Below, piece after piece: positions 16,942 to 40,889 of a DNA stretch of 43,588 nt (position 1 is its first letter; each line of letters opens with the position of its first letter). Where the stretch lies: contig JAGPEO010000001.1 of assembly GCA_018056925.1 (NCBI GenBank), positions 1 through 43,588 of the forward strand, written 5' to 3'. Origin of the DNA: Phycisphaerae bacterium (GTDB taxonomy: Bacteria; Planctomycetota; Phycisphaerae; UBA1845; Fen-1342). Below the pieces are notes generated by a model. It worked only from the letters and a program-made list of their open reading frames with translations. It was not told the origin of the DNA and ran no database searches. A program made the translations under genes and the position numbers.

Positions 16942-17105
16942 AGGTGTTTCCCGATTCGAGTTCCAAGTTTCGAGTTTCAACTTGGGGCGCCGTCCGCCTT
17001 GATACGGGCTGCAAACGCCCCGGCCGCCCGGTATACTAACCGCGTGACCGTCTTGTAGTAGAGACGCGGATTCGAACTCGAAACCCGAAATTTGAAACCT
17101 GAACC

Positions 17106-18161
17106 TTGAGACTTCCCGTGGAGCGGCCGGAGATTTCGGTAGTAGTGCCCGTTTATCAGGAGGAAGCCAGCCTTCCTACGGTCATCCCGCGCTTTTTGGA
17201 ATCGCTCAAGGCACAGTCGCGGAGTTTCGAGTTAATCGCGGTTAACGATGGCAGCCGCGATCGGAGCGGCGAGATTCTGGATCGCTTCGCGGCCCGCGAG
17301 CCGCGCCTGCGGGTCATCCACTTTGCCCGCAACTACGGGCAGACCGCGGCCCTGATGGCGGGCTTTTGGGCCGCCCGGGCCCCGGTGATCGTGCCGCTGG
17401 ACGGCGACGGGCAGAATGAGCCGGACGAGATCGGGCGCCTGGTGGACGAACTGGAGCGCGGCTACGACGTGGTCAGCGGCTGGCGCAAGGACCGCAAGGA
17501 TTCCTGGCTGCGGACGCGCGTTTCGCGGGCGGCCAACTGGCTGATCGGGCACATCACCGGCGTTCGGCTGCACGACTATGGCTGCACGCTGAAAGCCTAT
17601 CGAGCCGCGATGATTCGCGATGCGCGGCTGTACGGGGAGATGCACCGCTTCATCCCGGTGTTCACCAGCATGCACGGGGCGAGAATCACAGAACTGGTCG
17701 TGCGGCATCATCCGCGCATGGCGGGCGAAACCAAGTACGGGTACGACCGCGTGCTGAAGGTGTTGTTCGACCTGGTTCTGGTGCGCATGCTGCAGCGCTA
17801 TCGCACTAAGCCAATGCACTTTTTCGGCAAGATCACGAAATGGTCGTGGCTGGCGGCGTTGCTGTGCCTGGTGTTTGCGGGCGTGCAGGCGGCGTTATCC
17901 CCCACGCCGTGGCAGGCGTTCTGGGGCAAGGCGCCGGTGGTGGGCGTGATGTTCTTCCTGCTGGGCGGATTTTCGATCATGCTCGGCCTGGTAGCGGAAC
18001 TGGCGATGCGCGCCGCTTACGAATTCAACGCCGGGCGGTACTGGGATGAAGCGCGGCGCGTCAACTTCGAATCGAGCAGCGAGGATTGGGGCGTGCCACG
18101 GAGCATGTCGGCCGACCTCCGCTCAGCCGCTGTTGAAGAAGTTGCGGAAGCAGGTCGGTAA
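17106..18161 (+). CDS. GT2 polyprenol-phosphate glycosyltransferase (ArnC/GtrB/Dpm1-like) with C-terminal TM pair
   Basis: VVVPVYQEE, NDGSRD, DGDGQN (DxD). Two C-terminal TM helices. TTG or GTG start, uncertain. Confidence 0.85.
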   Translation: MRLPVERPEISVVVPVYQEEASLPTVIPRFLESLKAQSRSFELIAVNDGSRDRSGEILDRFAAREPRLRVIHFARNYGQTAALMAGFWAARAPVIVPLDGDGQNEPDEIGRLVDELERGYDVVSGWRKDRKDSWLRTRVSRAANWLIGHITGVRLHDYGCTLKAYRAAMIRDARLYGEMHRFIPVFTSMHGARITELVVRHHPRMAGETKYGYDRVLKVLFDLVLVRMLQRYRTKPMHFFGKITKWSWLAALLCLVFAGVQAALSPTPWQAFWGKAPVVGVMFFLLGGFSIMLGLVAELAMRAAYEFNAGRYWDEARRVNFESSSEDWGVPRSMSADLRSAAVEEVAEAGR

Positions 18162-22144: not shown

Positions 22145-22182
22145 GATAATTAGGGACAGTCACGTGACTGTCCCTAATTATC
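22145..22182. repeat. Perfect 38-nt palindrome between convergent genes (possible bidirectional terminator or operator)
   Basis: GATAATTAGGGACAGTCAC|GTGACTGTCCCTAATTATC, 19 + 19 nt with no mismatch. It is AT-rich relative to its surroundings and overlaps the stop codon of the 22181 ORF. Confidence 0.9.
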
Positions 22183-25106: not shown

Positions 25107-25266
25107 CGCCGTTTGCCCTCGCTAGCGCTTGGGGCTCGGTCGCCGGCCGTCGCTAGCGCTTCGGGCTCGGGTCGCCGGCCCTCGCTGGCGCTACGGGCTC
25201 GGATTGTTGGCGCTCATTGGCGCTTCGGGGCCGATCGCTGGCGGCATCTGGCGCTTCGAATCGGCC
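25107..25266. repeat. Five degenerate tandem copies of a 31-34 nt unit
   Basis: Units start at 25107, 25141, 25173, 25205 and 25236. Consensus is roughly CGCCGGCCNTCGCTAGCGCTTCGGGCTCGGGT. The array fills the whole clpP-lipoprotein spacer. The period is not a multiple of 3. Confidence 0.85.
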
Positions 25267-31206: not shown

Positions 31207-32825
31207 CCTCCGTCTCGTACCAGATCGAGGGGGGCAATTACGAAACGGGTGGGGCAGCCTCGCGCCAGATTAAAGAACAACTTAAGAAAATCGGGGCGGA
31301 TCCGGCGGTTGTCAGGCGGGCCATGGTGGCCGCCTACGAAGCCGAGATGAATGTGGTAATTCACTCGCACGGGGGCGAACTGCGGGCGGAACTGGACGAG
31401 CACGAATTACGCGTCGACGTGATCGACACCGGGCCCGGCATTCCCGACGTGGAACAGGCCATGAAGCCCGGCTTCTCGACGGCTTCGGCCAAGGCCCGGG
31501 AACTGGGCTTCGGCGCGGGCATGGGCCTGCCGAATATCAAGAAAAACAGCGATCATTTCGCGATCGAATCGGCGGCCGGACGTGGCACTCGCGTCAGTTT
31601 TACGATTCACCTACGTCCGCAGGCGCTGTACGGCGCGGGGCAGTTCTCGATCCAGGTTGAAGCCGAAAAATGCCGCCGATCGCTGCATTGCCTGCGGGCT
31701 TGCCCGACGCAGGCACTGCGGGTGCTGCGGGGCAAGCCTGAGATCCTGGATTACTTGTGCATTGACTGCACCGAGTGCATTGCCGCGTGCCCAAGCGGTG
31801 CGTGGGGTCTGCGGTCCGCGGGCGAAGAGCTTAAGCCATCCCCCGGTTCCATCCTCATACTGCCTCCGGTGAGCCTGGTGCAGTTCGGGGCGGGTATTAC
31901 TGCGGGGCAAGTCCTAACTGAGCTGGCGTACCTGGGCTTCTCGGATATCCGCGTAACGGCGGCCTGGGAAAGCGCGCTACGTAAGGCCGTCATGCAATAC
32001 GCGGCCGGCGAGACGCGCGTCCGCCCTGTGATCTCACCCGTGTGCCCGGCGGTTGTGAACCTGATTCAGTTGCGCTTCCCGTCGCTGCTGCCGCACGTGG
32101 CCCCGTTTCTTTCAGCCCAAGAGGCCGCCTATGAGAGCGTGGTCGGCGAGGATCGCAGGCTGCTGTCGCTGGTACCCTGCCCGTGCCAGTTGACGATTGT
32201 GCGGTCCCGCGACAGACCGGTGGAAAAGCGGTCCCACGTTCTGGCGGTGCTGCCGGCGACGTTCGCGGCCGTGTTGCACCCGCGCCTAAAGCGGGGAACA
32301 GGCCGCTCCGCCGACACGGGGTCAACGCCGGCCGCTCCGGACCCGCTGGGCGTCTTGCGCGTGACTGGAATCCATAAAGTGCGGCAGGTTTTGGAACGGC
32401 TGGAGGACGGGCTGCTGACCGACATCACGGTAATCGAGCCGTATGCCTGTTTTGCGGGCTGTTTTGGATCGCCGCTGTTTACGGAAGTCGCCAGCGTGGC
32501 CCAATATCGCTGGGCCCTGGCGCCGGCCAAACCCGATCCGCGGGCGCGGGCGGTGCGACGCGTGGTTCCGCTGGAGCCACGGCACGGGCTGCGGCTGGAT
32601 GCGGACATGACGCGCGCCATTCAGAAGTTGGCCAGGATTGATAAACTGCGCCGCAGCCTCCCCGGCAGCAATTGCGGCAATTGTGGAGCGCCGACCTGCG
32701 CGGCACTGGCCGAGGACATTGTTCTGGGGCGTGCCCAGCTCGATGCTTGCGTGCGGCAGAGGATGGATAACGAACCGGCCGCCAAGCAGTCGCGGCCCGG
32801 GCCTCCAGCGGAGGAAAGTAAATGA
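31203..32825 (+). CDS. Fusion of an RsbW/SpoIIAB-like Ser/Thr kinase, a 2x[4Fe-4S] ferredoxin, an [FeFe]-hydrogenase H-domain-like module and an RnfB-type FeS domain
   Basis: GHKL motifs (YEAEMNVVIH, DTGPGI, GAGMGLPNIKK). CRRSLHCLRACP and CIDCTECIAACP. L1-, L2- and L3-like ISPVCPAV, VPCPCQ and EPYACFAGCFGSP. C-terminal CGNCGAPTCAALAEDI. GTGA overlap with the upstream gene. Confidence 0.8.
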   Translation: MTSVSYQIEGGNYETGGAASRQIKEQLKKIGADPAVVRRAMVAAYEAEMNVVIHSHGGELRAELDEHELRVDVIDTGPGIPDVEQAMKPGFSTASAKARELGFGAGMGLPNIKKNSDHFAIESAAGRGTRVSFTIHLRPQALYGAGQFSIQVEAEKCRRSLHCLRACPTQALRVLRGKPEILDYLCIDCTECIAACPSGAWGLRSAGEELKPSPGSILILPPVSLVQFGAGITAGQVLTELAYLGFSDIRVTAAWESALRKAVMQYAAGETRVRPVISPVCPAVVNLIQLRFPSLLPHVAPFLSAQEAAYESVVGEDRRLLSLVPCPCQLTIVRSRDRPVEKRSHVLAVLPATFAAVLHPRLKRGTGRSADTGSTPAAPDPLGVLRVTGIHKVRQVLERLEDGLLTDITVIEPYACFAGCFGSPLFTEVASVAQYRWALAPAKPDPRARAVRRVVPLEPRHGLRLDADMTRAIQKLARIDKLRRSLPGSNCGNCGAPTCAALAEDIVLGRAQLDACVRQRMDNEPAAKQSRPGPPAEESK

Positions 32826-33184
32826 CTCTCGCGGAAATCGCGGAAAGACTGGGGCTGCAAAACCTGACGCCTGAGATCAGCCCGGCCGCGGCCGACGTGA
32901 CCGGCGGATACGTCTCGGACCTGCTAAGCGATGTACTGGCGAACGCACCGAAGGGCGGCGTTCTGGTAACGGTTCAGGTGCACCTGAACGTGATCGCGGT
33001 CGCGGTCCACGCCGAACTGGCCGCCATTATCTTCGCTTCTGATCGCGTTCCGGATGACACTGTTCAGGCAAAGGCGAAGGAAGAAGGCATCGCCCTGTAC
33101 TGCTCGAAGGCTTCGGCATTTGAGGTGGTCGGGCGACTGTGGGAAATGGGCGTGCGAGGGCCGCGGCAGAGTGATACGAAGTGA
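32822..33184 (+). CDS. DRTGG-domain protein (copy 2)
   Basis: VTGGYVSDLLSDVLANA...VTVQVHLNVIAVAV...AKEEGIALY.SKASAFEVVGRLWEMG. ATGA overlap with the upstream gene. Confidence 0.8.
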   Translation: MTLAEIAERLGLQNLTPEISPAAADVTGGYVSDLLSDVLANAPKGGVLVTVQVHLNVIAVAVHAELAAIIFASDRVPDDTVQAKAKEEGIALYCSKASAFEVVGRLWEMGVRGPRQSDTK

Positions 33185-33300
33185 TACAGTGATAAAGTGA
33201 TAAGGTGATAAGGTGATAAGGATTCAGCACTCGACGCAAGTCTGCCCGCGCCGCGCCCTTATCACTCTATCACGTTATCACCTTGTCACCCTATCACGTG
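33171..33300. repeat. Octamer array with inverted counterpart (long imperfect hairpin)
   Basis: Six direct GTGATA-NN units (33171-33220). A 37-nt GC-rich spacer. Five inverted NN(N)-TATCAC units (33258-33297). AT-rich in a GC-rich operon. Confidence 0.95.
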
Positions 33301-33322
33301 CTTCGCGGCGCGAGGTGCTCCC

Positions 33323-34114
33323 TTGAAGCTCTGGGCCGCCGACCTGCATATCCATACCGCCCTGTCGCCCTGTGCGGCGGATGAGATGACGCCGCCGGCC
33401 ATCGTGCAGGCGGCCCTGGAGCGCGAGCTGTCGATGATCGCGATTTGCGATCACAACGCGGCCGGCAATGCCGAGGCCGCTGCTGCCGCCAGCCTATGTG
33501 CCGGCCGCACCGTCGCCGGTCTCAAACTGGCGGTCCTGGCGGGCATGGAAATCATGACGGCCGAGGAAGTGCACATTCTGGGCATTTTTCCGAGCCCGGC
33601 CGCGGCGGCAGCGGCCGCGAAAGAGGTGCGTGCTACTCTGCCCGAGGCCACCGTCGCGTATCACCAGAAGTTCGGGCAGCAGCTTGTAATTGATTCGGGC
33701 GGGTCGATCGTCGATTCCGAGCCGAAAATGCTGGCCATGGCTTCGGGCTTCGACCTGTCGGCGGCGGTGCGGCTGATACACCGGCATGAGGGGCTGGCGA
33801 TCGCGGCGCACGTCAACCGCCCGTCGTTCAGCGTGTTCAGCCAACTCGGCATGTTCCCGGGGGACGCCGGTTTTGACGCCATCGAGGTTTTTACGCCCTG
33901 TGGCGACGGACCCGACGCTTCGCGAGCCGAAAGCCATACGGTCGTGGCGGAGTTCTCAAAATACGGCTTACCTGTCATCGCCTCGTCGGACGCCCATTAC
34001 CTGGATGACGTGGGGTCGGTACGTTCGCGCCTGCGGTTGCGGGAGCCGAGTTTCGACGAACTGGTGATGGCCCTGCGCGGTTCATGCGGGCGGCGCGTGG
34101 TACACGATGCGTGA
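33323..34114 (+). CDS. PHP-domain metal-dependent phosphoesterase
   Basis: DLHIHTALSPC, ICDHNA, AAHVNRP, ASSDAHY. TTG start with GAGGTG upstream. Confidence 0.85.
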   Translation: MKLWAADLHIHTALSPCAADEMTPPAIVQAALERELSMIAICDHNAAGNAEAAAAASLCAGRTVAGLKLAVLAGMEIMTAEEVHILGIFPSPAAAAAAAKEVRATLPEATVAYHQKFGQQLVIDSGGSIVDSEPKMLAMASGFDLSAAVRLIHRHEGLAIAAHVNRPSFSVFSQLGMFPGDAGFDAIEVFTPCGDGPDASRAESHTVVAEFSKYGLPVIASSDAHYLDDVGSVRSRLRLREPSFDELVMALRGSCGRRVVHDA

Positions 34115-34652
34115 GTTAGCGCTGCACATTCTCGACCTGGTCGAAAACTCGATCCGGGCCAACTCGTCAGTCATAGAGGTCACGGTCGCCGCGGACCAGA
34201 CGGCCGACCGCCTGCGCATCCAGATAGATGACAACGGCCCGGGCCTGAAGGTGACGCCTCAGCAGGCCCTGGACCCCTTCTATACGACCAAGTCCGGGAA
34301 ACGCACTGGTCTGGGCCTGAGCCTGTTCAAGGCGGCCGCCGAACGGGCGGGCGGACGGCTTACTTTAGAACGCTCGGACTTGGGCGGCCTGCGGGTTTTG
34401 GCGGAGATGGGCCTGCGACACGTAGACCGCAGCCCGCTGGGGGATCTGGCGACATCGCTGGGATCGGTCGTGTGCGCGAATCCGCACATCGATTTTCACT
34501 TTCGCATAAGTCACGACGGGCACGAGACTTGCATCCGAACCTGGGAGCTGGCACATGAACTTGGCCTGCCCCCCGACGATTCAATCGCTCTGGCACGCCG
34601 CGTGATAGAGACGATCCGGACGGAACTTGAAACGGCGAGGGGACTGGCTTAA
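34107..34652 (+). CDS. Stand-alone GHKL (histidine-kinase-like) ATPase without HisKA or receiver domains
   Basis: N-box LDLVENSIRAN, G1 DDNGPGL, G2 GLGLSL. 8-nt overlap with the PHP gene. Confidence 0.8.
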   Translation: MRELALHILDLVENSIRANSSVIEVTVAADQTADRLRIQIDDNGPGLKVTPQQALDPFYTTKSGKRTGLGLSLFKAAAERAGGRLTLERSDLGGLRVLAEMGLRHVDRSPLGDLATSLGSVVCANPHIDFHFRISHDGHETCIRTWELAHELGLPPDDSIALARRVIETIRTELETARGLA

Positions 34653-34754
34653 CAGCGGAGGGTGGGCACTCCCACCGCGCTTGAGCCCTAACCGCATTGG
34701 TGGCCGGCCGGGCCGTTGCCCCGCTAGGCCGGTCGAGCGTTACAGGAGATGTAA

Positions 34755-35306
34755 ATGAGTGAGGACCGCAAAGTAGGATGCACGTGCTCGTGCGGCGAGG
34801 AAGTCTCCGAGCAGGAGTTGCTTGCCCGCCTGGACGGCGTGCTCGCCGAATATCGGGACAAGCCCGGTGCTTTGATCCCGGTGTTGCAGATGGCGCAGGG
34901 CATCTTCGGCTATCTGCCCGAGGTGGCCTTGAAGCGGATTGCGTTAGGGCTGAACAAGTCCTACAGCGAGGTAGCCGGCGTCGTCAGTTTTTATTCCTTC
35001 TTCTCGACTGTGCCGCGCGGCAAGCACCTGGTGCGGGTCTGCCTGGGTACGGCCTGCTACGTGCGCGGCGGCAAACGCGTGCTCGACACGCTCAAGCAGA
35101 AGCTGGGCATCGACGTCGGCGAAACGACGCCCGACCGCCAGTTCACGCTCGAAGTGGCACGCTGCTTCGGGGCGTGCGGGCTGGCGCCGGCCATCATGAT
35201 CGACGATGACGTCCATCACCGTGTCAAGCCCAACAAGATCGAGCTGGTCCTCGGTCCGTATCGAAACGGCGAGGCGGCCAAGGCGGAAAGGAAGGTCCCG
35301 GCATGA
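34755..35306 (+). CDS. hydC: NuoE/HydC-like [2Fe-2S] subunit of NAD(P)-linked hydrogenase
   Basis: VCLGTACYVRGG ... ARCFGACGLAPA is the thioredoxin-like 2Fe-2S motif. AGGAG Shine-Dalgarno upstream. Confidence 0.9.
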   Translation: MSEDRKVGCTCSCGEEVSEQELLARLDGVLAEYRDKPGALIPVLQMAQGIFGYLPEVALKRIALGLNKSYSEVAGVVSFYSFFSTVPRGKHLVRVCLGTACYVRGGKRVLDTLKQKLGIDVGETTPDRQFTLEVARCFGACGLAPAIMIDDDVHHRVKPNKIELVLGPYRNGEAAKAERKVPA

Positions 35307-35668
35307 CTCGCATCAACAGCCCCCAAGACCTGAAAGCCCTTCAAGAGAAAGCCAAGAAAGACATCGACCTGCGCAGCGGCCAGAAGGACATGCGCATCAC
35401 CGTCCACATGGGCACCTGCGGCATCGCCGCCGGGGCGCGCGACGTGCTGGCCGCTCTGTTGACCGAGCTGGGTCCGGCCACCGACAAAGTCACAATCACG
35501 CAGACCGGCTGCGCCGGGCTGTGCGACCAGGAACCCATGCTCACGCTCACCGATAAGGCCGGCGGTTCCTTCCGCTACGGGCGTTTGGACAAGAACAAGG
35601 TTGGCCAGATCGTGCGCGAGCACGTGTTGCGCGGCCAGCCGGTGCTGGAATACATGATTAAGTGCTAG
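35303..35668 (+). CDS. Small thioredoxin-like [2Fe-2S] ferredoxin (HndB/HydD-like)
   Basis: VHMGTCGIAAGA ... QTGCAGLCDQEP. ATGA overlap with hydC. Confidence 0.8.
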   Translation: MTRINSPQDLKALQEKAKKDIDLRSGQKDMRITVHMGTCGIAAGARDVLAALLTELGPATDKVTITQTGCAGLCDQEPMLTLTDKAGGSFRYGRLDKNKVGQIVREHVLRGQPVLEYMIKC

Positions 35669-35728
35669 TTGTCAGTGGTCAGTTTTCAGTTGTCAGTTTC
35701 AGAATGCGACGGACAACTGATGGCTGAC
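35669..35728. repeat. Heptamer array with partial inverted counterpart
   Basis: TTGTCAG TGGTCAG TTTTCAG TTGTCAG TTTCAG (35669-35702), then GACAACTGA TGGCTGAC (35712-35728). A 9-bp perfect stem pairs 35686-35694 with 35712-35720. Confidence 0.9.
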
Positions 35729-35756
35729 GCCCGGCAACTTCGGAGATCGAGCGAAC

Positions 35757-38700
35757 ATGAATAACGTCAGAAGTCACGTTCTCGTCTGCACCGGCGGCGG
35801 CTGCATTGCCTCAGGGGCCCTCGAAGTTTCCGCGGCCCTGCGCGAGCAGCTCGAGAAGCACGGCTTGCACCACGAGATCAAGGTTATCGAGTCCGGCTGC
35901 CTGGGTCCCTGTGCGGTCGGCCCGGTCGCCTCCGTCTATCCCGATGGCACGTTCTACCAGGGATTGCGGGCCGACGACGCGGAGGAAATCGTCAAAGAGC
36001 ATCTGCTCAAGGGCCGCGTGGTCGAACGCCTGGTCCACAAGACGCCGGCCGGCCAGCCCGTTTCCGGCCTGCATGAGATCGGCTTCTTCCAGAAGCAGGT
36101 CAAAATCGTGCTGCGCAACTGCGGCGTGATCGACCCGCTGCGGATCGAGGAATACATCGCCCGCGACGGCTATCAGGCCCTCGGCAAGGTCCTGACCGAG
36201 ATGACGCCCGAGCAGGTCATCGCCGAGATGAAGAAGTCCGGCCTGCGCGGCCGTGGCGGGGCCGGCTTCCCGACCGGCTTGAAGTGGGAATTCACCCGCA
36301 AGAGCAAGGGCGAGGTCAAGTACATCCTGTGCAACGGTGACGAAGGCGACCCCGGCGCATTCATGGACCGCAGCGTCCTGGAAGGCGATCCGCACAGCGT
36401 AATCGAGGGCATGGCCATCGCCGCCTACGCCATCGGCGCGCACCAGGGCTTTGCCTATATCCGTGCCGAATACCCGCTGGCGGTCGAGCGTTTCCAGCAC
36501 GCCCTCAAGCAGGCCCGCGACTGCGGCTTGCTGGGGAAGAACATCATGAACAGCGGCTTCGATTTCGATATCGAAGTCCGCATGGGTTCCGGCGCGTTCG
36601 TCTGCGGCGAGGAAACCGCCCTGATGACGAGCATCGAAGGCAACCGCGGCGAGCCGCGTCCACGGCCCCCGTTCCCGGCCGTCAAAGGCCTGTGGGACAA
36701 GCCGAGCTGCCTGAACAACGTCGAGACCTTCGCCAGCGTGCCGGTCATCATGCACAAGGGCGCCGACTGGTACGGCTCCTACGGCACCGAGAAGAGCAAG
36801 GGCACCAAAGTGTTCGCCCTGGCGGGTGCGGTCAACAACACCGGCCTGGTCGAAGTGCCCATCGGCATGCCGCTGGGCGAGATCATCCACGACATCGGCG
36901 GCGGCATTCCGGGCGGCAAGAAGTTCAAGGCGGCCCAGATGGGCGGCCCGTCCGGCGGCTGCATCCCGAAAGAGCACCTGAACGTTCCGGTCGATTACGA
37001 GTCGCTGACCGAACTGGGCGCGATCATGGGCTCCGGCGGCATGATCGTCATGGACGAGGACACGTGCATGGTGGACGTGGCCCGCTTCTTCCTGGACTTC
37101 TGCCAGGATGAGAGCTGCGGCAAGTGTCCGCCGTGCCGCGTCGGCACCAAGCGCATGCTCGAAATCGTGAGCCGCATTTGCGAAGGCCTGGGCGAGGAAG
37201 GCGACGTCGAGAAGCTGATCGAGCTGGGCCAGACCATCAAGGACACGGCCTTGTGCGGGCTGGGTCAGACCGCCCCCAACCCGGTCCTGTCCACCATTCG
37301 ATATTTCCGCGACGAGTACGACGCCCACATTCGCGAGAAGCGCTGCCCGGCCGGCGTGTGCCCGTCACTGGTGCGAGCCCCCTGCCAGAGCGCCTGCCCG
37401 GCCGGCGTGGACGTGCCCGGGTTCGTCTCGCTGGTGGGCGAAAAGCGGTACGCCGAGGCCTTGGCGCTGCATCGCAATCGCAACCCGTTCGCGTCCGTTT
37501 GCGCCCGCGTGTGCTTCCACGCCTGCGAGGACAAGTGCCGCCGCGGCAGCCTCGACGAAGCGGTCGCCATTCGCGGCGTCAAACGCTTCATGGCTGAACA
37601 GGAAGTCACGGTTCAGCTCCCCTCCGTGCAGGACAACGAGGAAAACGCCCGCCGCAAGATCGCCATCATTGGCGCCGGCCCGGCCGGCCTGTCGTGTGCG
37701 TACTTCCTGGCGCGGCTCGGCTACCGCCCGAAGGTGTTCGAGGCCGAGTCACAGCCGGGTGGCATGCTGGTGCAGGCGATTCCCGCCTACCGGCTGCCGC
37801 GGCAGGAATTGGCCCGCGAAATCCGCATGATTGAGCGGCTCGGCGTGGACATCGAGCTGAACATGCGTCTCGGCCGAGACTTCACGCTGGAGAGCCTCCG
37901 CAAGGACGGCTATGAGGCCGTGTTCCTCGCCGTCGGCGCTCCGCAAGGCTCGAAGCTGGGTATCCCCGGCGAAGAGGCCGACGGCGTGGTCGACGCCCTG
38001 CGGTTCCTCCGCGAGTACAACGTCCGCGGCACCGCCCAGGTGGGCAAGAACGTGGTCGTTATCGGCGGCGGCAATTCGGCGATCGACGCGGCTCGGACCG
38101 CAATCCGCCTGGGAGCCGAGTCGGTTACCGTGCTCTACCGCCGAACGCGTGCCGAAATGCCCGCCTTCGCCGAAGAAATTGACGAAGCCGAGCACGAAGG
38201 CGTACGGATCGCGACCCTCGTCGCCCCGCTTGAAGTCGTGCAGAAGAACGGCAAGGTCGCCGGTCTCAAGTGCCGCCACATGGTCCTGGGCGAGTTCGAC
38301 CGCAGCGGGCGTCGCCGGCCGGTCGACGGCAAAGACGAAGACTTCATCGTCCCGGCCGACATGATCATCGCCGGCATCGGACAAAAACTCGACACGGCCG
38401 AAATCTTCAACGGCCAGGCCCTGAAGGTGAATCGTTCCGGCTTCATCGCCGCGGACCGAATCACCGGGCAGACCTCAGTGCCGTGGATTTACGCCGGCGG
38501 CGATGCGGCCGTCGGACCCTGGTCGGTCGTGGGCGCCATCGCGGATGGCGAAAAAGCGGCTGTGGCGATCGACAAGATGCTCACCGGGGCCGAGCACGCC
38601 TTCTGGCGTGAGAACCAGCAGCCGGACACCGAGTTTGACCCGGACGCCGATCCGGTGCAGTACCCGCGGGCCAAGCAGGCCATGATTCCGGTGAGCAAGC

Positions 38701-40664: not shown

Positions 40665-40731
40665 GAAACGATTCCCATTAGATCCGAGCCCAAAGCGACA
40701 GCGAGGGCGAAGGATCAACGGTGAACAAACA

Positions 40732-40779
40732 AGCGAGGCGCCTGCCAACCTCCAGATTGGCAGGCGCCTCGCTCTTTTG
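40732..40779 (+). terminator. Rho-independent terminator of the hydrogenase operon
   Basis: Perfect 17-bp stem AGCGAGGCGCCTGCCAA / TTGGCAGGCGCCTCGCT, an 8-nt loop, then CTTTTG. Confidence 0.9.
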
Positions 40780-40889
40780 CGCCCCGCGTCGCGATGCCGC
40801 GGCAAGCCTGATAAAAACCGCAATCAGCGATCCCAGAGCTGCGCTCTTTCCGCGCGACCTCAAAAATGGCGAATCGCCACTTTTTTTCG

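What the first reader, a model, noticed from the sequence alone, without database searches (positions are those of the whole stretch)
33171..33300. GTGATA octamer array mirrored by an inverted TATCAC array inside the operon
Seen in sequence: six direct units run from 33171 to 33220 (GTGATAcgaa, GTGATAca, GTGATAaa, then GTGATAag three times). A 37-nt GC-rich spacer follows. Then five inverted units run from 33258 to 33297 (cttATCAC, tctATCAC, gttATCAC, cttGTCAC, cctATCAC). The first units encode the last codons and the stop of the DRTGG-2 gene (...QSDTK*). The element fills the 138-nt gap before the PHP gene. It is strikingly AT-rich for this genome. It can fold into an imperfect stem of about 40 bp, or present 11 phased hexamer sites to a protein at an 8-bp period. 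Inference: it could be an intra-operon mRNA processing or stability hairpin, an attenuator separating the upstream and downstream genes, or a multi-site operator. I do not recognise it as a known element class.
Basis: seen in the sequence. Interest (0 to 1): 0.65.

Follow-up and report, generated by a model that had tools for sequence, protein, structure and literature searches.

The report
Dispersed GTGATA foldback repeat in operon
The mirrored GTGATA arrays are real, but they are one copy of a hairpin-forming repeat family scattered through Planctomycetota genomes that landed between two formerly overlapping genes, so they are not a regulator built for this hydrogenase operon.

Summary
Six GTGATA units (33171-33220), a 37-nt GC-rich spacer and five inverted units (33258-33297) fill the 138-nt gap, and the second unit supplies the upstream stop codon. 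The operon-specific reading does not hold. Near-identical elements, with the same unit order and often the same loop, lie at dozens of unrelated loci in Planctomycetota MAGs. One such locus co-occurs with the window across public runs, so it is probably from the same organism. In distant relatives the two genes overlap (GTGA) and there is no gap. Relatives with 82-83% identical PHP protein lack the array here and carry a RAYT transposase with REP arrays instead. One of them has a GTGATA foldback at a different junction of the same operon. Of 33 copies, 31 abut a gene 3' end, 14 lie between convergent genes and 2 between divergent genes. No target duplication, U-tract or promoter was found. The element diverges faster than synonymous sites. 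The best reading is a REP/REPIN-like foldback repeat whose arms are phased octamers. It was inserted into a stop/start overlap and is transcribed through. Any effect, such as a hairpin barrier or translational uncoupling, is generic and untested. The invariant hexamer with free 2-nt spacers keeps an array-binding protein possible.

The parts
33171..33220 (+). Left arm: six GTGATA units (GTGATAcgaa, then GTGATAca, aa, ag, ag, ag). The purine-rich 2-nt spacers vary and the hexamer is invariant.
33182..33184 (+). TGA stop codon of the upstream 120-aa (weakly DRTGG-like) gene, supplied by the second GTGATA unit. The last residues QSDTK are encoded by the junction and the element.
33221..33257 (+). 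37-nt GC-rich loop/spacer (GATTCAGCACTCGACGCAAGTCTGCCCGCGCCGCGCC). It belongs to a long-loop subfamily shared with L120 and L209. It is 26% diverged from the strain whose PHP protein is 97% identical.
33258..33297 (+). Right arm: five inverted units (ctTATCAC, tcTATCAC, gtTATCAC, ctTGTCAC, ccTATCAC) with pyrimidine spacers.
33298..33325 (+). Sequence between the right arm and the PHP gene. It holds a Shine-Dalgarno-like GAGGTG (33312-33317) and the TTG start (33323-33325), which replace the ancestral GTG start that overlapped the upstream stop.
35667..35739 (+). Second foldback of the same architecture but with a different unit: five (A)GTTGTC/TTGTCAG heptamers, a 9-nt loop, then inverted GACAACTG..CTGAC. 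It starts at the TAG stop of the 2Fe-2S gene.
16948..17110 (+). Third foldback: TTCGAGT-like heptamers, a GC-rich spacer of about 90 nt, then inverted ACTCGAA-like heptamers. It lies upstream of a glycosyltransferase gene.

Best explanation
SHOWN: the element is one copy of a dispersed family of foldback repeats found in Planctomycetota (Phycisphaerae-like) genomes. Each copy has 3-6 tandem GTGATA+RR octamers, a GC-rich loop, and the same array inverted. The loop is usually 15-20 nt of the type GGGATTCCGCGGACCGTCC, and 35-60 nt in a subfamily that includes this copy. The order of the 2-nt spacers is conserved between loci, so the copies descend from a common source and were not grown independently by slippage. 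In this lineage a copy entered the 4-nt GTGA stop/start overlap of two translationally coupled genes. The upstream gene now stops at a TGA inside the array. The PHP gene acquired a TTG start with its own GAGGTG ribosome-binding site 25 nt beyond the right arm. The family behaves in the genome like REP/REPIN elements. Copies sit at gene 3' ends, often donate the stop codon, are enriched between convergent genes, are nearly absent between divergent genes, and have no target-site duplication. Because GTGATARR has a stop in all three frames and its complement has none, the palindromic element presents stops to genes entering from either side. INFERRED: the element is read through as part of the operon mRNA and can fold into an imperfect hairpin of about 40 bp (about -53 to -68 kcal/mol). 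Its likely consequences are generic ones known for REPs. These are breaking translational coupling, acting as a 3'-exonuclease barrier or an RNase III-type substrate between cistrons, and perhaps weak termination. It is probably not a designed control point for hydrogenase expression. How the family spreads is unknown.
For: Family and homology. A genome-collection scan found GTGATA arrays with inverted partners at 9 or more loci of one Planctomycetota MAG (CTOTU19882). It also found them in Phycisphaerales and Planctomycetales MAGs. A metagenome scan added about 25 more non-redundant high-GC copies. The alignment shows the same unit and spacer order in the window copy. The loop of the window copy is shared with L209, which lies at an unrelated locus. 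L164, a canonical copy, co-occurs with the window in 9 of the window's top-20 runs at more than 0.9 word share.

Insertion. L124, L125 and L126 (PHP 60-64% identical) have the two genes overlapping at ...GTGAAG... with no gap. The window reads ...cggcagaGTGA[TA...array...ctccct]TGAAG. L122 has a GTGATA foldback in a different junction of the same operon, while L121 and the window are empty (overlapping) there.

Context. Among 33 copies, 14 are convergent, 17 co-directional and 2 divergent. Of these, 31 abut a 3' end and about 20 lie within -20 to +15 nt of the stop. REPs show the same distribution and the same stop-codon donation (PMC3733652).

Complementarity is kept through double changes in the spacers, with ga/tc against gg/cc and ag/ct against aa/tt.

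Read-through. RNA-run contigs span 33021-33228, 33186-33660 and 33214-33482, and depth does not drop downstream. There is no U-tract or promoter consensus in the element. The operon ends in a canonical GC hairpin plus TTTT at 40733-40781.

Turnover. Against the 97% strain the gap has 14/144 mismatches plus two indels, and the loop has 10/39 differences. Third codon positions differ by 4.5%, and two other gaps differ by 0/102 and 1/88.
Against: No transposase, terminal tag or target duplication was found, so mobility is inferred only from distribution and from filled and empty sites. Only two copies can be tied to the source organism. Its whole genome was not available, and the link to L164 rests on co-occurrence. 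The RNA evidence consists of assembled contigs from metatranscriptomes, one of them of uncertain RNA status. These contigs break at the repeat, so no 5' or 3' ends and no quantitative read-through could be measured. Sense-strand RNA is not more stable than antisense: 8 against 9 of 17 co-directional copies, and -53.0 against -64.4 kcal/mol in the window. Complementarity therefore looks like a DNA-level or mechanistic property rather than selection on one RNA. A hairpin alone does not explain why the hexamer is almost invariant (3 mismatches in 174 positions in the three copies not ascertained by my search pattern) while the spacers vary freely.
Confidence: 0.7

Rival explanations
1. A phased multi-site DNA-binding array. 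A dimeric ribbon-helix-helix-type or nucleoid-associated protein recognises each GTGATA/TATCAC hexamer at an 8-bp period and polymerises over 4-6 sites per arm. The dispersed copies would then form a genome-wide set of binding sites with an architectural, silencing, termination or element-maintenance role. This does not exclude the copies also being a spreading repeat.
For: The hexamer is near-invariant while the 2-nt spacers vary, and the 8-nt phase is strict. Most arms have four or more units. GTGATA foldbacks with an 8-nt period also occur in Bacteroidota and Chloroflexota. There is a precedent. The RHH ParB/omega protein of pSM19035 binds 7-10 contiguous 7-bp repeats 5'-WATCACW-3' in direct and inverted orientation, one dimer per repeat, and needs at least 4 repeats (PMC9499535). 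MetJ on tandem 8-bp metboxes and ParG on 8-bp-spaced boxes behave similarly (own knowledge). The Geobacter annotators proposed unidentified global regulators for equivalent paired arrays (PMC2700814). The lack of RNA strand asymmetry fits a double-stranded-DNA role.
Against: No candidate protein was identified. Other foldbacks in the same window use unrelated heptamers, so several proteins would be needed. The inner hexamers of most collected copies were fixed by my search patterns, which is an ascertainment bias. The 97% strain tolerates GTGACA and TATCCC units and unequal arms of 7 against 4 units. Position at gene 3' ends rather than at promoters argues against a classical operator.
Confidence: 0.2
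2. An operon-specific RNA element: an attenuator, a processing site or a stability hairpin evolved to set the ratio of sensory genes to downstream PHP and hydrogenase genes.
For: The stem is very stable and lies between cistrons. It is identical in six assemblies of the species. A gap of the same size (137 nt) is recorded for the relative with 86% identical PHP protein, for which no DNA could be read.
Against: The element is absent from this junction in relatives with 82-83% and 60-64% identical PHP protein, where the genes overlap or a RAYT/REP cluster sits instead. The same element occurs at dozens of unrelated loci. Unit numbers are unbalanced and the loop is 26% diverged in the 97% strain. 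There is no U-tract. RNA contigs run through the element.
Confidence: 0.05
3. A purely local microsatellite. The array grew in place by replication slippage from the TGA/TAA-rich stop region, the inverted arm arose by template switching, and it has no dispersal and no function.
For: Unit number differs between close strains (6 against 7 left units, 5 against 4 right units). The first GTGA of the array coincides with the ancestral GTGA overlap. In L122 the heptamer unit of the neighbouring foldback equals the last coding heptamer of the upstream gene.
Against: The spacer order and the loop sequence are shared with copies at unrelated loci and in other genomes, which independent slippage would not reproduce. 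Slippage copies whole octamers, so it cannot explain heterogeneous spacers alongside an invariant hexamer.
Confidence: 0.05

Closest known systems
REP / BIME / REPIN elements (repetitive extragenic palindromes, mobilised by RAYT Y1 transposases)
   Same: High-copy, dispersed, short and extragenic. Copies lie downstream of genes, mostly between co-directional and convergent genes. Termini often supply the stop codon. Two inverted halves fold into one long hairpin, as in a REPIN. There is no target duplication. The elements are transcribed with the upstream gene (PMC3733652; my counts).
   Different: Each REP is itself an imperfect palindrome carrying a GTAG or CGTC tag. Here each arm is a direct tandem array of octamers with no self-complementarity and no consistent tag. 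No RAYT is linked to the family. The RAYT found in relatives is flanked by a different, 32-nt CGTC-type REP.
Paired 'global regulator binding sites' classes 1-3 of Geobacter metallireducens (Aklujkar et al. 2009, PMC2700814)
   Same: The architecture is the same. Each arm has 3-5 tandem octa-, nona- or hepta-nucleotide repeats and the two arms lie on opposite strands at a variable distance. There are 8-24 pairs per family. The outer units are degenerate. The sites are intergenic, including between genes of one operon (proB-proA). Several families co-exist in one genome.
   Different: The unit sequences are different (GTTGCTYN, TCTCCGTS, MTYCTGA). Function is equally unknown, since IHF/HU binding was only guessed. 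Two IS families insert at a fixed distance from those sites, which was not seen here.
GGGAATC heptamer repeats of Xanthomonas (Rehm et al. 2015, PMC4692102)
   Same: These are intergenic tandem 7-nt arrays. Per genome, 70-75 occur as convergent inverted pairs able to form stem-loops. Repeat length varies between species while the type is preserved.
   Different: The unit is G-rich and was studied as a G-quadruplex former. No stop-codon donation or insertion into gene overlaps was reported.
parS/operator arrays of the RHH protein omega (ParB) of plasmid pSM19035; MetJ metbox arrays
   Same: These are arrays of four or more short phased repeats sharing the core ATCAC (5'-WATCACW-3'), in direct and inverted orientation, each bound by one dimer. 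MetJ uses an 8-bp period (own knowledge).
   Different: The period is 7 bp, the repeats are contiguous without a loop, and they lie at promoters of a plasmid. The resemblance is a lead only, because no such protein was found here.
MITEs and intrinsic terminators
   Same: The element is a small non-coding inverted-repeat element in intergenic DNA, with a stable stem just after a stop codon.
   Different: No target-site duplication above chance and no related autonomous IS were found. There is no U-tract, although this organism does use a canonical hairpin plus TTTT at the operon end.

Membership tests
REP/REPIN | Dispersed in many copies, extragenic, at gene 3' ends between co-directional or convergent genes | tested here: met
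   More than 35 non-redundant high-GC copies were collected, with 9 or more in one MAG. Of 33 copies, 31 abut a 3' end, with 14 convergent, 17 co-directional and 2 divergent.
REP/REPIN | Each repeat unit (20-40 nt) is itself an imperfect palindrome | tested here: not met
   The arms are direct tandem octamers and pairing is only arm-to-arm.
REP/REPIN | Conserved GTAG or CGTC tetranucleotide tag at one end | tested here: not met
   Flanks vary. CGTC appears across the last TATCAC in only a few copies.
REP/REPIN | Cognate RAYT (Y1 transposase) in the genome, typically flanked by the same repeats | tested here: inconclusive
   A tblastn search with the RAYT of L122 finds no homologue in any locus carrying a GTGATA copy apart from L122 and its near-duplicates. 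That RAYT is flanked by a different 32-nt REP. Whole genomes were not searched.
MITE | Target-site duplication flanking terminal inverted repeats | tested here: not met
   The longest flank direct repeat averages 5.5 nt, against 5.2 nt in shuffled flank pairs.
MITE | An autonomous IS with the same ends | not tested
   Arms without a partner (L016, L054) have no partner arm within their 8-kb loci. No genome-wide search was possible.
Intrinsic (Rho-independent) terminator | GC-rich stem directly followed by a U-tract | tested here: not met
   No terminator-like site was found in 33171-33330. The stem is AT-rich and is followed by gtgcttcgcgg.
Paired inverted arrays of short tandem repeats (Geobacter classes 1-3; Xanthomonas GGGAATC pairs) | Three or more tandem 7-9-nt units per arm, arms on opposite strands with a variable spacer, multi-copy, intergenic | tested here: met
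   compared with the descriptions in PMC2700814 and PMC4692102. This class is defined by architecture only and has no known mechanism.
RHH-protein operator/centromere arrays (omega WATCACW heptads, MetJ metboxes) | Four or more phased short repeats with an invariant core | tested here: met
   There are 6 + 5 units with an 8-nt phase and a hexamer that is 10/11 perfect.
RHH-protein operator/centromere arrays (omega WATCACW heptads, MetJ metboxes) | A cognate array-binding protein, with sites at the promoters or centromere it controls | not testable with these tools
   No protein was identified. The sites lie at 3' ends, not at promoters.
Curated RNA families (Rfam 15) | A match at or above the family's gathering score | tested here: not met
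   The only hit is mir-1329 at 35.8 bits against a gathering score of 101.2, which is a generic hairpin match.

The most novel reading that the evidence does not exclude
GTGATA-octad foldbacks are a cross-phylum class (Planctomycetota, Chloroflexota, Bacteroidota) of non-autonomous elements. An as-yet unknown array-binding protein, RHH-like or a nuclease/transposase, would recognise their phased hexamers. That protein would copy them preferentially into stop codons and stop/start overlaps, where they deliver stops in all frames in both directions and act as factor-dependent bidirectional insulators or terminators. This would be a new element-protein system comparable to REP-RAYT.
Probability: 0.15. 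Interest if true: 0.8.

Novelty: new variant of a known kind. Interest (0 to 1): 0.5.

Why it matters
For this operon the result is deflationary. The striking array is not evidence of hydrogenase-specific regulation, and annotators should not infer an operator or attenuator from it. More broadly, it documents an unnamed repeat family with a distinctive design: phased octamers with an invariant hexamer, mirrored arms and stops in all frames from both sides. The family repeatedly splits translationally coupled genes in Planctomycetota. Look-alikes occur in Bacteroidota and Chloroflexota, and architectural equivalents were noted but never explained in Geobacter and Xanthomonas. Finding what copies or binds these arrays would address the long-open question of how short extragenic palindromes without a known transposase spread. 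It would also show whether they serve as terminators or insulators in phyla where transcription termination is little studied.

Tried and rejected
(1) Rfam returned nothing above threshold.

(2) RNA end mapping was not possible. All RNA runs that hold the locus are kept only as assembler contigs. These break at the repeat and pool k-mers from other family copies, which explains the depth spike at 33037-33370. Only presence and read-through could be inferred.

(3) Target-site duplication. The 6-nt direct repeats flanking the window copy (GCGAGG) and the L122 copy (CGGAGG) looked promising. They are at chance level across 35 copies, and in the window the left copy is ancestral coding sequence.

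(4) RNA strand asymmetry (G.U against A.C) as a test for selection on the sense transcript showed no bias.

(5) Linking the family to the RAYT found in the same gap in relatives failed. That gene has its own 32-nt REPs and no homologue lies near other GTGATA copies.

(6) A Shine-Dalgarno / anti-Shine-Dalgarno mimicry idea was considered. AGGTGAT in the left arm and ATCACCT in the right arm match the 16S 3' tail and its complement. I set it aside because the other foldbacks use unrelated units and Bacteroidota largely do not use SD. It was not tested.

(7) Literal sequence searches of the literature for the array found no paper.

(8) A generic scan for other tandem-array foldbacks in the fetched high-GC loci mostly re-found GTGATA arrays. 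It also found a few other units in L026, L111 and L134. The loci were chosen for GTGATA, so this says little about how special the hexamer is.

Full report
THE OBSERVATION. The sequence is as described. There are six GTGATA units from 33171 to 33220, the first 10 nt long and the rest at an 8-nt period. A 37-nt GC-rich spacer (33221-33257) follows, then five inverted units from 33258 to 33297 (four TATCAC and one TGTCAC). GTGATA occurs 18 times in the window against 6.0 +/- 2.4 in shuffles, and ten of those are here. TRF finds period 8 on both arms. The arms are 41 nt and 83% complementary. The region folds far better than shuffles, both as RNA (-68.1 kcal/mol, z -5.4) and as DNA (-30 kcal/mol, z -5.9). 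The upstream 120-aa gene ends ...GPRQSDTK* with its TGA inside unit 2. The PHP gene starts with TTG at 33323, which leaves a 138-nt gap. 'DRTGG' is only a sub-threshold Pfam hit for that gene. Six independent assemblies have the gap identical.

SETTING. The window comes from a Planctomycetota (Phycisphaerae-like) MAG of anaerobic digesters and sludge, GCA_035451425.1. The genes form an [FeFe]-hydrogenase operon. In order they are HydF, a 116-aa gene, a HydS-like HATPase/Fe-S sensor, the 120-aa gene, PHP, an HATPase, a NuoE-like gene, a 2Fe-2S gene, a NuoF-GltD fusion and HydA. The operon ends in a canonical GC-rich hairpin plus TTTT at about 40733-40781.

IT IS A FAMILY, NOT A ONE-OFF. Among high-GC hits, one Planctomycetota MAG (CTOTU19882) alone has nine or more loci. 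Six of these are complete foldbacks of the form GTGATAaaGTGATAagGTGATAg(g/a)GTGATAaagg, a 15-19-nt loop, then ccttTATCACtcTATCACttTATCACctTATCAC. Phycisphaerales and Planctomycetales MAGs have further copies. The order of the 2-nt spacers and the loop (about GGGATTCCGCGGACCGTCC) recur between unrelated loci, and the window copy aligns unit for unit with them. Its longer loop is shared with L209, a different locus, and with L120. One canonical copy, L164, co-occurs with the window in 9 of the window's 20 best-matching public runs at more than 0.9 word share. The source organism therefore very probably carries at least two copies. Independent slippage cannot reproduce a shared internal order, so the copies are homologous and have been dispersed.

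IT IS AN INSERTION INTO A GENE OVERLAP. In relatives with 60-64% identical PHP protein (L124, L125, L126), the two genes overlap by 4 nt. The sequence reads ...cgagggccgcatgcGTGAaagcg..., with the TGA stop inside the GTG start. The window reads ...cgagggccgcggcagaGTGA[TAcgaa ... TATCACgtgcttcgcggcgcgaggtgctccct]TGAAGctctgg. The array therefore begins exactly at the ancestral GTGA. The PHP gene has acquired a new GAGGTG ribosome-binding site and a TTG start. Relatives with 82-83% identical PHP protein (L121, L122, L123) have no GTGATA array in this gap. There the gap holds a Y1 transposase gene (PF01797, RAYT-like, frameshifted in L121) flanked by tandem 32-nt CGTC-type REP units. L122 does carry a GTGATA foldback, but one junction upstream, between the HydS-like gene and the 125-aa gene. 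Those genes overlap in the window (ATGA) and in L121 (GTGA). In L122 the upstream stop is again a TGA inside an array unit. This gives two independent insertions of the same family into two stop/start overlaps of one operon. The strain with 97% identical PHP protein (L120) has the element with 7 left and 4 right units. An RNA contig from another community shows the same variant.

GENOMIC BEHAVIOUR OF THE FAMILY. I called genes with a GC3-based ORF caller of my own. Of 33 high-GC copies with two callable neighbours, 14 lie between convergent genes, 17 between co-directional genes and 2 between divergent genes. Of these, 31 abut a 3' end. About 20 lie within -20 to +15 nt of a stop codon. In several convergent pairs (L058, L156, L224, L217, L051) the element is essentially the whole intergenic space and both genes end in or next to it. 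From general knowledge, convergent and divergent spacers are each a minority of roughly equal size in bacterial genomes, so 14 against 2 is a strong skew toward 3' ends. GTGATARR contains TGA, and often TAA, at a period that is not a multiple of three, so every frame is closed within three units. Its complement YYTATCAC has no stop in any frame. The element is palindromic, so a gene entering from either side meets the stop-rich arm first. This follows directly from the sequence. REPs show the same distribution and also donate stop codons (PMC3733652). Flanking direct repeats are at chance level. No U-tract or sigma-70-like promoter lies in the element.

STRUCTURE OR SEQUENCE? Across 36 copies the spacers covary so that the arms stay complementary. 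At one spacer position the pairs are G-C 20, A-T 8, G.T 4 and A.C 2. At others A-T and G-C are about equal, with fewer mismatches. Subfamilies show ga/tc against gg/cc and ag/ct against aa/tt. The copies are related by descent, so these are few events and not 36 independent ones. There is no sign that one RNA strand is favoured. In 17 co-directional copies the sense RNA is more stable in 8 and less stable in 9, and in the window the antisense strand would fold better (-64.4 against -53.0 kcal/mol). The hexamer is almost invariant, with 3 mismatches in 174 positions in the window, L120 and L122, the copies not ascertained by my patterns. About half of the spacer positions differ within an arm. 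A hairpin alone does not require that pattern. It keeps open recognition of the phased hexamer by a protein. A worked precedent is the RHH protein omega/ParB of pSM19035. It binds 7-10 contiguous 5'-WATCACW-3' heptads in direct and inverted orientation and needs at least four (PMC9499535). MetJ on 8-bp metboxes is another (own knowledge).

TURNOVER. Between the window and L120, third codon positions differ by 4.5%, and two other intergenic gaps differ by 0/102 and 1/88. The element gap has 14/144 mismatches plus 6-nt and 12-nt indels, and its loop differs at 10 of 39 positions. The element is therefore either hypermutable or has been partly overwritten from another family copy. It is not under the purifying selection expected of a tuned regulatory site.

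TRANSCRIPTION. Four RNA or possibly-RNA runs hold the locus, but only as assembled contigs. Contigs cover 33021-33228, 33186-33660 and 33214-33482, and downstream depth is not lower than upstream depth. This fits read-through. It cannot show ends, because assemblers break at such repeats, and one run's RNA status is uncertain.

WHAT IS KNOWN. The same architecture was recorded in the Geobacter metallireducens genome paper as three classes of paired 'global regulator binding sites'. Each arm has 3-5 tandem octa-, nona- or hepta-nucleotides, the arms lie on opposite strands at variable spacing, the outer units are degenerate, and one pair lies between proB and proA. Function is unknown (PMC2700814). 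The architecture was also recorded for GGGAATC arrays in Xanthomonas, with 70-75 convergent pairs per genome (PMC4692102). No paper in the library contains the GTGATA array sequence. GTGATA-octamer foldbacks also occur in Chloroflexota (the GTGATAGG type) and in human-gut Bacteroides, where the loop is conserved. My patterns required GTGATA, so how special the hexamer is remains unmeasured. The window itself holds two further foldbacks with unrelated heptamers.

VERDICT. The element is best described as a REP/REPIN-like dispersed foldback repeat with arms built of phased GTGATA octamers. It was inserted into a stop/start overlap and is carried along in the operon transcript. Membership in REP proper fails on two defining features: the units are not self-palindromic and carry no GTAG/CGTC tag. 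Membership in MITEs fails on target duplication, and membership in intrinsic terminators fails on the U-tract. The element matches the unnamed 'paired inverted short-tandem-repeat array' architecture of Geobacter and Xanthomonas. Its effect on this operon is inferred, not shown. The likely effects are loss of translational coupling and a stable intercistronic hairpin. A protein that reads the hexamer array remains a live rival at about 0.2.

Noticed in passing
window 35667-35739; L122 6421-6505; L124 7233-7257: A second foldback starts at the TAG stop of the 2Fe-2S gene. It has five AGTTGTC/TTGTCAG heptamers, a 9-nt loop and an inverted arm (RNA fold -37.6 kcal/mol, z -2.8). The relative L122 (PHP 82% identical) has a foldback at the same junction with a different heptamer (AATGCCA), whose unit equals the last coding heptamer of the upstream gene. 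Distant relatives have only a gap of about 23 nt. This reflects either co-evolution of both arms or repeated insertion at one hotspot.
   Followed up: partly
window 16948-17110: A third foldback has about five TTCGAGT-like heptamers, a GC-rich spacer of about 90 nt, and inverted ACTCGAA-like heptamers. It lies just upstream of a family-2 glycosyltransferase gene. The fold is only weakly better than shuffles (z -2.2).
   Followed up: partly
window 25115-25258 and 40680-40710; L122 3154-3345 and 3850-3960: A tandem 32-nt REP array (unit about GGATCCGAGCCCGAAGCGCTAGCGAGGCCCGTC, ending in CGTC) lies between a 216-aa ORF and clpP. A single degenerate unit lies after hydA. In the relatives L122 and L123 the same unit flanks a RAYT-like Y1 transposase, six times upstream and three times inverted downstream. 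That cluster sits in exactly the gap that holds the GTGATA element in the window.
   Followed up: partly
L121 896-1344: The RAYT-like gene in this relative is split into two reading frames (tblastn hits at 896-1084 and 1066-1344). It looks like a decaying copy with only one or two REP units left on each side.
   Followed up: no
window 40733-40781: A canonical intrinsic terminator lies after hydA. It is a 17-bp GC-rich stem (AGCGAGGCGCCTGCCAA / TTGGCAGGCGCCTCGCT) followed by CTTTTG. It shows that this organism uses U-tract terminators, unlike the foldbacks.
   Followed up: partly
window 22145-22182: A perfect 38-bp palindrome (GATAATTAGGGACAGTCAC|GTGACTGTCCCTAATTATC) lies just after the stop of a 249-aa ORF with no Pfam hit. 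It is AT-rich for this genome and its function is unknown.
   Followed up: no
window 33221-33257 compared with L120 3911-3946: The loop of the element differs at 10 of 39 positions from the strain with 97% identical PHP protein, while third codon positions differ by 4.5% and neighbouring gaps by 0-1%. This suggests either local hypermutation of the exposed loop or conversion from another family copy.
   Followed up: partly
L008-L119 and L127-L246 (low-GC loci, e.g. L039 1001-1066, L032 1480-1560, L014, L040, L114): Bacteroidota genomes and human-gut contigs hold many octamer arrays (GTGATAAT, GCGATAAT, TTCGGCAA, GTGCCAAT and others) that change gradually from one unit type to the next. They also hold a conserved GTGATA foldback with the loop aagtRgctgcgctataTATCACagagcgttatcccg. 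Bacteroides intestinalis AF14-32 alone has three loci.
   Followed up: no
window 34626-36030 compared with 31700-34220 (RNA run X26): In one metatranscriptome the contig covering the NuoE-like gene to the start of the NuoF gene has word depth of about 15, against 2-4 for the sensory genes upstream. This hints at an internal promoter or differential stability near 34653-34754. Contig depth is a poor measure.
   Followed up: no
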